From Eledone cirrhosa (taxonomy: Eukaryota), in the NCBI GenBank assembly GCA_964016885.1, contig OZ024742.1:68572001-68636000 (forward strand): a stretch of 64,000 nt of DNA, in the 5' to 3' direction. This document shows positions 14,398-64,000 of the stretch, piece after piece. The first letter of the stretch is position 1. Every line of letters begins with the position of its first letter. The position numbers were made by a program, and so were the translations under genes. Under the pieces are notes generated by a model. That model worked only from the letters and a program-made list of their open reading frames with translations. It did not search any database and was not told the DNA's origin.

Positions 14398-15072
14398 TCT
14401 TTCCATTATTAGTGTGGTAATTTAAGGTTATTAATATATGTTGAGAAGAGACTGTTTTTATATTTTTCTAACTAGATTAAGGTTTATATAGTTGGGGGAT
14501 GTCCCTCTTTTATGTAATATTCGGCTTGTAGTGGGAAAAAAGGGTTTTAGTTCTGTGACGGCAGAATAATGTTCGTTCAATTCTGTTATTCAGCAGTTTC
14601 TTCTTGTGTGTGATTATGTAATAAATCTCAAGATTACACAATTTGCAGAAATTTTGGCTCCTGGAAAAGCTTTGGGTTTTAGCTAATTTCTCCCATTTTA
14701 GGGTAAACTTTTGATCGCTATCCCTGAGCGTCCAAGCTTTTTCTGCTAAAGTTGTTACATTTCTTTGGCTCTGGTGTTTTATTGAGTAAGAATGCCTATA
14801 CAATCGAGATTTAAACGATGTTGCCGTTGATCCCACGTAATACCACTCGTTGCCTCCGGATTTAATGGTACACTTATAAATAATATTTTTTTCCAGGCAG
14901 TTATTGCCGAGGGGGCAGTTGTCAGGATAGGTGCAGTTACAGTTGTGTACGTTGGGTTTTCTCTGGAGTAGTATATATATATATATATATGTCTGTGTGT
15001 GTGTATATATATATATATATATATATATATATATATATATATATGACTGTATATATATATATATATATGTCT

Positions 15073-16296
15073 ATCATCATCATCATCATCACCGTTGTAC
15101 GTCCGTTCTTCCACGTTAACATGGGTTAGACGGGTTGTCCTGTTGTGGGTAGTGTCTGGTCAGCTGACCTTGTCTTGCTCATACAGGAACGGATTCTGGC
15201 TCGATTTCTACAGCTGGATGCCCTTCATAATACCAACCTCATTCACAGTGAGTGCTGGGTGCTTTTTTTCAGTGGCGCCTACACGTCCACTTTACAGTGT
15301 GGGCTGGGTGCTTTTTTGTAGTCGGGTCTTCTGTATTACTGTCGGGTCTTCTGTATTACTGCGCGACGCCAGAGGTCACGGTCGTTTGTCATCACCTTTG
15401 AGAGGTGTAATTGGGTAAGATCAGCTTCTATCACCTCATCGCAGGTCTTCTTGTGTCTCCCCACTCTGCGGTTTTCATCGACTTCTAGTGCTCTGCACCT
15501 TTTTATGCAGCTGTCATCTTTCATACTCATCACATGTCCATACCAATGCAACCACCTCTCCTGCACACAGCATTTGATTCCTCTTATGCTCAGTCTCTCT
15601 CTCAATTCATTTATGCTTTGCCGTTCACGTATATTACTATTACACATCCATCGGAGCATACAGGCTTTGTTTCTTTCTAATCTACGCAAGTCTTCCACAG
15701 ACAGTACGCTGGTCTCATTACCATGTAACATTGCTGTTCATAAACACGCATCATATAATCTGCCTTTCATTTTGAGGGAAAAGCCTTTTGCAGCTAGCAG
15801 TGGCAGTAGCTTCCTGGACTTCTTCCACCCCGTTCTTACCCTAGGTATTATACTTTCCGAACACCCACCTCCACTGCTAATTTGTTCACTTAGGTAGCAG
15901 AAGCAGTCTACTGTCTCTACAGAGCCCTCCCAGAGATTGGTGGTACTTGTTTCCTGTGGCTGTTTGCTGTCTCAGCACAGCTGCTGCATGTGAAGCCTAC
16001 ATACTTAATTAAGCTTCCTGAGATCCCACTACACCTCTTGTGTACCCATTGTTTGCACTTGGGGCAGAGAACGGAGTTCCTACCTACACCTTTCCTACAT
16101 ACTGAGCAAGGCCATTTCCCTGAGAGGCTCTGGGTTCTGTTTTCTCTTCTACTTACAAGGACCTTAGTCTTTGTCATGTTGACTTTGAGACCCTTTCTTT
16201 CTAGTCCCTGCTTCCAAGTTTGGAATTTCTTCTCTAGTTCTACCATAGATTCAGCTATAAGTGCGAGGTCATCTGCATACAGGAGTTCCCATGGGC
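15073..16296 (-). mobile_element. RTE-B (diverged variant), 5'-truncated at [10 protein letters not shown]
   Basis: (GAT)n tail at 15073; 3' UTR with a deletion; ORF pieces 15336-15731 and 15917-16296; abuts TA arrays on both sides. Confidence 0.95.
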
Positions 16297-16557
16297 ATAT
16301 ATATATATATATATATATGTCTATATATATATATATATGTCTGTATATATATATATATGTGTCTGTATATATATATATATATATGTCTGTGTATAAATAT
16401 ATATATATGTCTGTGTATAAATATATATATATGTCTGTATATAAATATATATATATATGTATGTATATATATATATATATATATATATATATATATATGT
16501 ATATATATATGTATGTATATATATATGTATGTATATATGTATACATATATACATATA

Positions 16558-16886
16558 TGGTATCCAATGATGTTGACTTGTTCTTCTTTTTGGTAAATAT
16601 CATCTTGGTTAAGAGAGTGGGACTAGCTTTGTGCAGTGCCTTTGCTCACTATAAAAGCTTCACGGCACAGGCATTGCTTTGTATCTGGCGATCTCTCTGC
16701 ACTTGCCGTCACATGGTACCATGGGCCCAGCACTATGTGTCAATAATTGTCACAAGTGTAGTGTTTGTACCAGAGTTTTCAAGTCGCTGGCTGGACTAAA
16801 AAGTCACACTTGTTCAGCGCATCGGTAGGCATTCTCCTACATGGATATAAAGTAGTGGCCGTACTCGAAAACGAGTTGGCAGCCAT
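16558..16886 (+). mobile_element. Bipartite non-autonomous RTE derivative, copy 1 (shortest)
   Basis: Near-identical to 49284-49610 and 56463-56790, with the same right end; C2H2 remnant [23 protein letters not shown] at 16757-16828. Confidence 0.8.
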
Positions 16887-61561: not shown

Positions 61562-61960
61562 ATACGTGTAGCTGGACATTCAATTGTAAAATTCTCTTAG
61601 TGTTGTCTGAAATGTATGGCCTTACACACGCTGATGAACCGAGACTAGACCATTTCTTTCAACAAATTTTTTGGTGAAACATATCTTTGGATTTGTACGT
61701 GTGTTATATAGTTATAAAGGTATTTATTTACGCTTTAATTTATATTTTTAATTATCGTGTCTATAGTCTGCCTTTCATAGGTTATAGATTCCATACACTG
61801 GTGGTTTTTTCCCTGTATTATTGATAACGCACTATATATCTCTCTCTGGTGTGTTACCTTCTCAACATATTATATTTTAAAGGGCTCAGGATCTCTTCCC
61901 CTTTGAGCACATTATTTACAGGGAATAACGACGGCCTATGCCTCCGTTAATTTATCGTGA
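61562..61960 (+). mobile_element. ~400-bp non-coding island, probable PLE pseudo-LTR or retrozyme-like unit
   Basis: Unique sequence between arrays that contains an intact hammerhead; no coding similarity seen. Confidence 0.55.
61624..61704 (+). ncRNA. Canonical type I hammerhead ribozyme
   Basis: ACACACG-CTGATGA-ACCGAGA...TTTTGGT-GAAA-CATATC tttg GATTTG-TA-CGTGTGT. Perfect 7-bp stem I; GUA site (predicted cut after A61697). Confidence 0.9.
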
Positions 61961-63477
61961 TATGTATATATATATATATGTATGTATATATATATGTATG
62001 TATATATATGTATGTATATATATATATGTATGTATATATATATGTATGTATATATATATACGTATGTATATATATGTATGTATATATATATATGTATGTA
62101 TATATATATGTATGTATATATATATACGTATGTATATATATATATGTATATATATATATATGTATGTATATATATATATGTATGTATATATATACATGTA
62201 TGTATATATATATATATGTATGTATGTATATATATATATATATATATATATATATATGTGTGTGTATGTGTATATATATGTATGTATATATATATACATG
62301 TATGTATATATATATATATATATATATATATATATATATATATATATATGTGTGTGTATGTGTATATATATGTATGTATATATATATACATGTATGTATA
62401 TATATATATATATATATATATATATATATATGTGTGTGTATGTGTATATATATGTATGTATATATATATACATGTATGTATATATATATATATATATATA
62501 TATATATATATATATATATGTGTGTATGTGTATATATATGTACGTATATATATATACATGTATGTATATATATATATATATGTGTATGTGTATATATATA
62601 TGTATGTGTATATATATGTATGTGTATATATATGTATGTGTATATATATATATATATATATATATATGTATGTGTATATATATATATATATATGTGTATA
62701 TATATATGTATGTGTATATATATATGTATGTGTATATATATATATGTGTATGTATATATATATATATGTATGTGTATATATATATATATCTGTATATGTA
62801 TATATATATATATATGTATGTGTATATATATGTATGTGTATATATATATATATGTGTATATATATATGTATGTGTATATATATATATATGTGTATATATA
62901 TATATATGTATGTGTATATATATATATATGTATGTGTATATATATGTATGTGTATATATATATATATATATGTATGTGTATATATATATATATGTTAGTG
63001 TATATATATATATGTATGTGTATATATATGTATGTGTATATATATATGTATGTGTATATATATATATATGTTAGTGTATATATATATATGTATGTGTATA
63101 TATATATGTATGTGTATATATATATGTATGTGTATATATATATATATGTTAGTGTATATATATATATATGTATGTGTATATATATATGTATGTGTATATA
63201 TATATGTATGTGTATATATATATGTATGTGTATATATATATATATATATATATATATGTATGTGTATATATATGTATGTGTATATATGTATGTGTATATA
63301 TATATATATATATATATGTGTATATATATGTATGTGTATATATATATGTATGTGTATATATATATATATGTGTATATATATTTATATGTGTATATATATA
63401 TATGTATGTGTGTATATATATATATATGTATGTTTGTATGTGTGTATATATATATGTATGTATATATGTATGTGTAT
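61961..63477. repeat. (TA)n/TATGTG array with higher-order units
   Basis: Recurrent variants TACATGTATG and ATGTTAGTG (three copies, ~62990-63155). Confidence 0.98.
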
Positions 63478-63920
63478 ATCATCATCATCACCATTTTAGG
63501 TCCGTTCTTCCACGCTAGCATGGGTTAGACGTGTTGTCCTGTTGTGTGCAGTGTCTGGTCGGCTCACCATGCCTTGCTCATACAGGAACTGATTTGGCTT
63601 GATTTCTACAGCTGGATGCCCTTCCTAACAGGAACCTCATTTACAGTGAGTGCTGGGTGCTTTTTCCTTGGTGCCTACACGTCCACTTTACAGTGTGGGC
63701 TGGGTGCTTTCTTGCCGTGGCACCTCCACGACCACCTTGTGGTGGGGGGTGTGGGGGCATATTGTTTATATGCTTCAGCATGTACCCATGGGAGGTCGGG
63801 TACTCTGTATTACTGCGTGACGCCAGAAGTCACGGTCGTGTGTCATTGTCTTTGAGAGGTGTAATTGGGTAAGTTCGGCTTTTATCACCTCATCCCAAGT
63901 CATCTTGGGTCTCCCCACTC
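63478..63920 (-). mobile_element. RTE-B 3' end
   Basis: (GAT)n tail, 3' UTR and ORF C-terminus up to [10 protein letters not shown]. Confidence 0.95.
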
Positions 63921-64000
63921 GTGTATACATATATATATATGTATGTGTATATATATATATATCTGTATATATATATGTATGTGTGTGTGTATATATATAT

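What the first reader, a model, noticed from the sequence alone, without database searches (positions are those of the whole stretch)
14970..64000. Arrays are strand-polar: A-to-G interruptions almost all on the + strand over ~49 kb
Seen: (TA)n is self-complementary, yet interruptions are TG on + in nearly every array, beside inserts of either orientation, typically about one G per 8-16 nt. C-rich exceptions are small (~32810-32990, ~42590-42725, ~52030-52145). The one large C-on-plus tract nearby (~13850-14340) lies downstream of a minus-strand PLE ORF, so it has G on that element's sense strand. Inference, competing models: (a) all arrays descend from one polar seed; (b) transcription- or replication-linked A>G asymmetry, implying a long + strand transcript; (c) speculative: (UA)n RNA hairpins are A-to-I edited by ADAR (extensive in coleoid cephalopods) and written back to DNA by the resident RTs.
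Basis: partly seen in the sequence, partly recalled or inferred. Interest (0 to 1): 0.7.

Follow-up and report, generated by a model that had tools for sequence, protein, structure and literature searches.

The report
One-sided TA arrays and edited RNA
The one-sided pattern is real and most likely comes from a single lopsided TA repeat that grew and was split by about 30 jumping-gene insertions, not from the host gene's transcription, but elsewhere in this octopus-type genome kilobase TA repeats carry extra G's on one strand that were likely written in by the RNA-editing enzyme ADAR before the RNA was copied back into DNA.

Summary
Confirmed and wider than reported: 26 of 26 arrays from 12,664 to 4 kb past the window carry G on + (TG 1,738, CA 52). 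All spacers are multi-copy mobile elements. G spacing is regular, and the inserts show no A>G excess (44 vs 46). So the domain is best read as one polar array, expanded and split by nested insertions. Transcription-linked asymmetry fails: in 622 kb of introns, 49 polar arrays have G on sense and 46 have C.

Three copies of one [RTE end - TA array - element X] unit differ from an unedited relative almost only by A>G. The changes follow ADAR context, are confined to a hairpin, and give independent G patterns inside the array. One such array is 3.5 kb. The 600-bp element X has G on its sense strand in 39 of 39 polar 3' flanks.

The scan had already noted ADAR write-back in this genome on other DNA; edited TA arrays and X were not in the notes shown. 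Where this array's first G came from is open.

The parts
12664..64000 (+). Polar TA/TG domain, G on +; continues to L041:4019 (55.4 kb in all), ending in (TA)n(GA)n 0.4 kb before an exon of a TLCD4-like gene
12664..13382 (+).
13383..14971 (-). 5'-truncated high-copy element, Penelope-like (label recalled; Pfam not run on its ORF), with its own internal TA/TG tract (C on +, about 13,850-14,340)
15069..16296 (-). Older RTE-B-like LINE fragment, 85% to the others, not edited
16559..16887 (+). Element X, 5'-truncated
16888..18758 (+). G array, 1.87 kb, regular spacing (GG 8 vs 27 expected)
18759..21633 (+). LINE with APE endonuclease and RT, (TTCAAAGTTA)n tail; CR1-like label recalled
22107..31733 (.). 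RTE-B (-), RTE-A (+), 28-bp G array, RTE-B (-): LINEs with RT and PHD (plus an endonuclease hit in RTE-A) and (GAT)n tails; RTE label recalled
31734..36011 (+). G arrays of 0.65 and 3.57 kb split by a 59-bp repeat piece (Y); GG 1 vs 33 expected in the long one
36012..39276 (+). RTE-A copy
39277..45047 (+). G arrays of 1.04 and 4.48 kb split by a 253-bp fold-back repeat piece
45048..56184 (.). RTE-A (-, +, +, -), a second Penelope-like piece (-), X (+, 49,188-49,615), RTE-B (-), Y (+) and short G arrays; a 33-bp C piece at 52,027-52,060
56186..56791 (+). Element X, full length (about 605 bp): young, non-coding, ends in a C2H2-like ORF remnant; orientation locked to array polarity
56792..64000 (+). 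G arrays split by RTE-A (+), CR1-like (+), an unnamed repeat and RTE-B (-); the arrays from 61,960 on are denser and GG-richer

Best explanation
The 55-kb domain is most likely one TA/TG array that was already one-sided, grew by local duplication of G-containing units, and was split by about 30 mobile-element insertions, so that every piece keeps the seed's strand. Shown: the spacers are repeats, the G's are regularly spaced, the inserts are unedited, and gene strand does not predict polarity. Inferred: growth is by slippage plus long target-site duplications. Polarity is likely reinforced through RNA. Element X lies in one fixed orientation to the G strand. At other loci, transcripts running through such clusters on that strand were edited A>I in their self-pairing (UA)n and hairpin parts and copied back, likely by reverse transcription primed at X's 3' end. 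That route adds G's on the same strand and plants new polar arrays. Whether it supplied the first G's of this array is untested.
For: Domain sharply bounded; 26 of 26 arrays G on +. 96% of 35,360 spacer bases match repeats outside the cluster in a 1.6-Mb sample, partly fetched for these families. GG 98 vs 276 expected; rare variants recur in tandem. Inserts: A>G 44, T>C 46 in 20,839 called bases. Elements of both orientations sit in G-on-plus arrays. Neighbouring polar arrays agree more often when close: 64 of 77 pairs under 0.7 kb in short loci, and 25 of 36 under 0.7 kb against 6 of 10 beyond 10 kb in long stretches. At L214, X is flanked by a duplication of 76 unique bases plus about 410 bases of polar array. 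A second all-G cluster of about 15 kb with mixed inserts and X always + lies at C3:374.56 Mb. X: 3' flank G 39, C 0, neither 17 of 56; 5' flank G 37, C 1, neither 18 of 56; 14 vs 1 in loci not chosen for X. Edited transductions.
Against: No empty-site allele was seen, so one seed is inferred, not shown. G lies on the sense strand of the adjoining + gene, and the cluster upstream of its minus-strand paralog is mostly G on its sense strand too. Among intron arrays of 500 bp or more the split is 6 to 3, too few to exclude a weak bias. Arrays at the right end (from 61,960) are not GG-depleted (58 vs 48) and could descend from an edited piece. A>T and A>C variants outnumber their mirrors 23 events to 8; I read these as changes of existing G's, which was not tested. 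A cluster 70 kb away switches polarity several times, so clusters need not be uniform.
Confidence: 0.75

Rival explanations
1. The regular arrays are mostly tails made at X's 3' end by reiterative reverse transcription of a short (UA)nUG RNA end, later split by other elements. This is compatible with the best explanation and would name the seed.
For: Three sister copies have three different regular G tails. L316 has no array at its 5' junction and a 2.66-kb regular tail, GG 19 vs 57 expected. All 3 X copies in the window are + and followed by G arrays.
Against: 5' flanks of X are as polar as 3' flanks (37 vs 39), and one-sided cases are balanced, 8 vs 6, which fits oriented targeting. At L214 the 3' array is duplicated target. 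The window's largest arrays do not touch X. 13 of 131 unselected polar arrays touch X.
Confidence: 0.25
2. The G's of this domain are themselves ADAR edits of the + strand pre-mRNA, written back in place by resident reverse transcriptases (strong form of model c).
For: Edited TA arrays exist in this genome. The + strand RNA of a window array is predicted to fold 98-99% paired, the other strand 84-87%. An edited copy lies 71 kb past the domain.
Against: Edited arrays have G at 32-43% of units with near-random spacing; most window arrays have 10-26% with strong GG depletion. Random editing of 25-30% of A's laid on a window array in a simulation gives the edited statistics, not the observed ones. 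No insert in the domain is edited although inverted pairs abound. No copy of one window junction was found elsewhere (1 hit, itself).
Confidence: 0.07
3. Transcription- or replication-linked A>G asymmetry along a long + strand transcript (model b).
For: A + strand TLCD4-like gene begins 0.4 kb downstream, and a contig that looks spliced has 211 nt of upstream exon.
Against: 49 G vs 46 C polar arrays on the sense strand in 621,760 bp of 22 gene spans (p 0.84), with both signs inside single genes. No asymmetry in the inserts. X orientation in those spans is 7 sense, 6 antisense. Replication direction was not tested, but sign flips within 1 kb occur.
Confidence: 0.05
4. Base-calling or consensus artefact.
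For: The arrays themselves were not checked against reads.
Against: Sign flips on the same contig, including the fixed C tract inside one element. Higher-order repeats of rare variants. The edited RTE copy appears letter for letter (369 nt) in contigs of 3 of 4 runs laid, all three from one sample.
Confidence: 0.03

Closest known systems
[quoted passage not shown]
   Same: Clustered A>G, close to half of the adenosines, in a reverse-transcribed RNA, tied to an inverted repeat.
   Different: Here the substrate is non-LTR read-through RNA with self-pairing (UA)n arrays, the copies sit in an animal's chromosomes, and one edited array is 3.5 kb.
APOBEC-edited LTR retrotransposons fixed in vertebrate genomes (PMC4866542, PMC2873906; passages read)
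   Same: Hypermutated element copies in the reference genome beside unedited relatives, strand-biased, with an enzyme motif.
   Different: A>G on the RNA strand, not G>A in cDNA. That screen covered LTR elements and reported no G>A editing in 19 invertebrates.
Microsatellite-targeting retroelements and nested clusters: Naiad/Neptune PLEs in (TA)n (PMC8557442, passages); LINE/SINE-microsatellite interplay (PMC3812793, passages); Dong, Waldo, SART/TRAS (recalled)
   Same: Repeated insertion into a simple repeat, which is split and extended.
   Different: At least six element types share one array, and X is locked to the strand of the sparse G interruptions of an otherwise symmetric repeat.
Ubiquitous A-to-I editing of repeats in coleoids; (AT)n makes up over 10% of the Doryteuthis genome (PMC9068888, passages)
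   Same: Gives the enzyme activity and the substrate class.
   Different: Describes RNA only; the passages read do not mention edits entering DNA or polarity of AT arrays.
Transduction of flanking sequence by non-LTR elements (L1, SVA; recalled)
   Same: Flanking sequence is copied with the element, with different 5' truncation points.
   Different: The passengers lie 5' of a non-autonomous element and carry editing barcodes.

Membership tests
Nested insertion cluster in one microsatellite | All DNA between the arrays is mobile-element DNA | tested here: met
   96% of 35,360 bases in 29 spacers match outside the cluster; four gaps of 164-377 bp remain
Nested insertion cluster in one microsatellite | Target duplicated in the same orientation at insertion | tested here: inconclusive
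   Seen at L214; not resolvable at window junctions, which lie in repeat on both sides
Nested insertion cluster in one microsatellite | An empty or shorter allele joins the two outer flanks | not tested
Transcription-linked mutation asymmetry | Polarity follows the gene's strand | tested here: not met
   49 vs 46 polar arrays in 22 gene spans
ADAR-hyperedited RNA fixed in DNA: the window's arrays and inserts | One-strand A>G excess in paired inserts; independent G positions | tested here: not met
   44 vs 46; GG 98 vs 276; simulation
ADAR-hyperedited RNA fixed in DNA: other loci | One-directional A>G on one strand | tested here: met
   L048: 74 of 166 A vs 2 of 94 T; L315, L316, L319 vs L346: 41 of 42, 32 of 34 and 32 of 33 differences are A>G
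ADAR-hyperedited RNA fixed in DNA: other loci | G depleted 5' and enriched 3' of edited A (motif as in PMC4365171, passage read) | tested here: met
   10 sense-edited loci: 18% edited after G vs 30-55% (p 6e-10), 53% before G vs 30-45% (p 3e-4). In 3 antisense loci the 5' effect holds (p 0.003) and the 3' effect does not (p 0.2)
ADAR-hyperedited RNA fixed in DNA: other loci | Edits confined to double-stranded parts | tested here: met
   15 of 26 A in a hairpin vs 0 of 31 beside it; 1-2 of 144 A in the X body
ADAR-hyperedited RNA fixed in DNA: other loci | Unedited source and independent sister copies | tested here: met
   L346 is unedited but lacks two changes that the three copies share, so it is a close relative of the source; private G 56, two-of-three G 11, shared G 56, none 96
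ADAR-hyperedited RNA fixed in DNA: other loci | Caused by an ADAR enzyme | not testable with these tools
   Inferred from the signature only
APOBEC DNA editing | G>A clusters on the element's sense strand | tested here: not met
   Among 2,599 windows, 2 weak G>A windows (7 changes each) against 3 strong T>C windows from two copies, i.e. A>G on the element's sense strand
RTE clade (for RTE-A, RTE-B and X) | RT phylogeny places them in RTE | not tested
   Label recalled from the (GAT)n tail and domain layout; Pfam gave RVT_1, endonuclease and PHD only

The most novel reading that the evidence does not exclude
The abundant one-sided TA/TG arrays of octopod genomes are built by an RNA cycle: self-pairing (UA)n RNA is edited by ADAR, copied back by reverse transcription primed at element X, and homogenised by slippage. 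G-U pairing keeps the G strand double-stranded and X re-enters in the same orientation, so RNA editing writes and ratchets the strand polarity of a large share of the genome's simple repeats, the seed of this 55-kb domain included.
Probability: 0.3. Interest if true: 0.85.

Novelty: new variant of a known kind. Interest (0 to 1): 0.66.

Why it matters
The long-range polarity itself needs no new biology. What it led to is less ordinary: kilobases of microsatellite carrying RNA-editing marks in chromosomal DNA, with an unedited relative and three independently edited sisters. In coleoids, where editing of repeats is extensive and (AT)n can exceed 10% of the genome (PMC9068888), this is a route from RNA editing to heritable sequence that can be counted. 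Dense, randomly spaced G arrays become a marker for RNA-derived DNA, and the G strand gives the strand of the RNA that was copied. It also shows a non-autonomous element oriented by sparse interruptions in a symmetric repeat and carrying upstream DNA with it.

Tried and rejected
1. Transcription bias: rejected.
2. Arrays as tails of whichever element adjoins them: rejected. Among 29 copies each, 3' flanks were C 9, G 3, mixed 5 for the CR1-like family and C 3, G 2, mixed 4 for RTE-B; most RTE-A flanks were short or pure TA.
3. Ongoing editing of the Penelope-like element's internal tract: copies gain G more than C inside the tract, but its flanks show no A>G excess (0, 0 and 1 events) and the tree was unresolved because truncated copies brought in unrelated flanks. 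Inconclusive; the first run crashed.
4. GG frequency alone as a mark of editing: not specific; 32 of 102 unselected polar arrays pass it, many through (TG)n runs.
5. The T>C pattern search was meant as a chance control, but 3 of its 25 hits proved edited on the antisense strand and 15 belong to one family on C25, so it gives no clean background rate.
6. Search for retro-copies of the window's own RTE-A/array junction: only the window; the other junctions were not tested.
No RNA holder was listed.
8. Rfam on X: nothing near a gathering score. X's autonomous partner was not sought.
10. Paper searches listed no paper on edited TA arrays or edited non-LTR copies in genomic DNA; the library lacks most subscription journals, and no supplements were read.
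Full report
1. The observation. The window lies at G000:C3:68,572,001-68,636,000 of a 3.0-Gb genome. With 100 kb fetched on each side, the polar domain runs from 12,664 to 4,019 bases past the window; 26 of 26 arrays are G on +. Outside it the arrays are short and of either sign, until a second cluster at 139-164 kb that switches sign several times. The C tract near 14,000 is built into a high-copy element (30 of 30 copies) that is inserted into the G array. It is therefore no exception to the domain and says nothing about this locus.

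2. Anatomy. The 29 spacers (35,360 bp) are 96% covered by matches outside the cluster in 1.6 Mb of fetched DNA, part of which I fetched for these families. They are LINEs with RT and endonuclease or PHD domains (RTE and CR1 labels recalled), a SINE-like element, Penelope-like pieces (label recalled), a DNA transposon and a 605-bp non-coding element that I call X. RTE-A lies in both orientations, RTE-B is minus in all 5 copies, and the CR1-like element and X are plus. A TLC-domain gene, 91% identical to a protein named TLC domain-containing protein 4-B of Octopus bimaculoides, has its first coding exon 0.4 kb past the domain on +. A 1,414-nt contig of run X4 (kind not on record) covers just that exon, has 211 nt before it and runs on into unrelated sequence behind it. 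The domain is thus probably in a 5' intron; the upstream exon was not located.

3. The G's here are amplified, not independent. Over 15 arrays, adjacent GG units number 98 where 276 are expected; spacing CV is 0.15-0.63 in 11 of the 15 against about 0.9 for random placement, and rare variants recur in tandem. The arrays at 61,960-63,479 (58 vs 48) and 67,107-67,602 on the window scale (14 vs 20) are exceptions. The inserts show A>G 44 and T>C 46 in 20,839 called bases. At another locus, an X insertion is flanked by a same-orientation duplication of 76 unique bases plus about 410 bases of array, which shows one way in which insertions multiply a polar array.

4. Model (b) fails. I took spans between same-strand Pfam exon hits of 16 myosin, 3 kinase and 3 TLC genes, assumed intronic. 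Of 235 arrays in 621,760 bp, 49 were G on sense, 46 C on sense, 48 mixed and 92 had too few interruptions. At 500 bp or more the split is 6 to 3. X lies 7 sense and 6 antisense in the same spans. Against this, both TLCD4-like paralogs have upstream clusters that are mainly G on their sense strand; I treat two cases as chance.

5. Element X is locked to polarity. Over 56 X ends, some from overlapping loci, the 3' flank is G-polar in 39, C in 0 and neither in 17; the 5' flank is G in 37, C in 1 and neither in 18. In loci not chosen for X the count is 14 to 1, while the CR1-like family (5 G, 14 C) and RTE-B (2 G, 8 C) lean the other way and RTE-A is 7 to 3. Oriented targeting, co-mobilised flanks and tail synthesis could each contribute; these data do not separate them.

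6. Model (c) operates elsewhere in the genome. An RTE-A fragment 71 kb past the domain has no copy closer than 81% among 40 scored candidates. It differs from 29 relatives by 74 A>G (of 166 A) against 2 T>C, with 16% editing after G against 42-69%. A 369-nt piece of it appears without a difference in contigs of runs X1-X3 (one sample, possibly the assembly's own). An unselected scan of 2,599 windows found only this copy and one pulled in by similarity to it, so such copies are rare. A pattern search gave 20 hits, 12 hyper-edited on the element's sense strand; its mirror gave 25 hits, 3 edited on the antisense strand. Of these 15, 11 have a neighbouring array with G on the edited strand (one weakly), 1 has C and 3 have no polar neighbour; three of the 11 are sisters. 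X lies downstream on the edited strand in 10 of 15.

7. The array itself is edited. L315, L316 and L319 share diagnostic changes and one X truncation point but have different 5' ends and tails. L346 is an unedited relative in an all-G cluster of about 15 kb. Against it, 41 of 42, 32 of 34 and 32 of 33 differences in the non-repeat part are A>G. In L319 they fall on 15 of 26 A's in a hairpin and 0 of 31 beside it; the X body has 1-2 of 144. The 484-nt array segments of L315 and L319 align without gaps, with all C anchors in register, and differ at 49 purines. Two TA/TG arrays of equal length always differ only at purines, so the weight rests on other points. Length is kept between anchors. TG share rises from 0.27 in L346 to 0.35-0.43 in the copies. 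The three-way pattern is 56 private G, 11 two-of-three, 56 shared and 96 none; independent editing predicts about 13 two-of-three (my arithmetic from those counts). L346's array is 64-82 nt shorter and aligns with some G>A mismatches, so it is not the exact template. At L301 a 3.5-kb array with G 670, C 0 and random spacing lies between an edited RTE end and X.

8. Mechanism. Shown: bounded domain, repeat-only spacers, regular G's, unedited inserts, no gene-strand rule, X orientation, and edited arrays at other loci. Inferred: growth by slippage and target duplication from one seed; ADAR as the enzyme; priming at X's 3' end by a partner LINE's RT. A simulation that edits 25-30% of A's in a window array gives G at 37-44% of units and near-random GG, like the edited loci and unlike the window. 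So the bulk of this domain did not pass through an editing round after it grew. The G strand of a window array is predicted to fold better than the C strand (98-99% vs 84-87% paired), which could keep the G strand a substrate; this is a prediction only.

9. Comparison and novelty. Nested insertion into (TA)n is known (PMC8557442, PMC3812793; passages). ADAR hypermutation of reverse-transcribed RNA is known for two avian retroviruses (PMC12925331; passage), and APOBEC-edited LTR copies are known in vertebrate genomes (PMC4866542, PMC2873906; passages). The ADAR motif is from PMC4365171 (passage). Repeat editing and (AT)n abundance in coleoids are from PMC9068888 (passages). PMC7703385 (abstract passage) says edits are not inherited directly, and PMC4693238 (passage) only suggests that editing may block Alu transposition. 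Ten searches listed nothing on edited microsatellites in DNA. Earlier notes of this scan report ADAR write-back in this genome many times and class-specific orientation in (AAT)n clusters. I saw them after my own tests and count them as leads only. None of those shown concerns TA arrays, and X had no look-alike.

10. Verdict. Observation confirmed; model (a) best for the window (0.75); (b) rejected; (c) real as a source of extra G's and of new polar arrays elsewhere, unproven as the origin of this one. Novelty: new variant of a known kind. Interest 0.66.

Noticed in passing
L048:5212-5738 (G000:C3:68,711,212-68,711,738): Unique RTE-A 3' fragment with 74 A>G in ADAR context. Both flanking arrays carry random G on the same strand. 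Contig depth is about half that of nearby single-copy DNA, so it may be heterozygous.
   Followed up: yes
L346, L347 (=L315), L348 (=L316), L350 (=L319): One unedited unit and three independently edited, differently truncated copies of [Y hairpin - RTE-A end - TA array - X].
   Followed up: yes
L355:1786-6215 (G000:C1:71.32 Mb): Edited RTE-A end and tail, then a 3.5-kb array (G 670, C 0, GG 265 vs 255 expected), then two tandem X copies.
   Followed up: partly
L327: Antisense-edited RTE-A piece head to head with a sense RTE-A piece; looks like a 5' inversion of one edited cDNA.
   Followed up: no
L041:4419-4646, L053, L054, L048:1544-1693: Two TLCD4-like paralogs face each other tail to tail over 67 kb; each has a large array cluster just upstream of its first coding exon.
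   Followed up: partly
window-scale 139,000-164,000 (L048-L050, L357): Second cluster with several polarity switches and a 200-N gap; its X copies are all minus, and one sits at a C/G boundary.
   Followed up: partly
L214: X insertion with a duplication of roughly 490 bp of target (array plus 76 unique bases).
   Followed up: partly
L035: Tandem X copies separated by pure (TATG)n.
   Followed up: no
L041:1856-3106: DNA transposon with terminal inverted repeats inside the array's right end; mariner-like label recalled.
   Followed up: no
L331-L345 (G000:C25:20.7-23.8 Mb): Fifteen related repeat-bearing units spread over 3 Mb.
   Followed up: no
window 22107-24634: RTE-B copy with a 78-bp tandem duplication and a deletion of about 190 bp relative to its sisters.
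   Followed up: no
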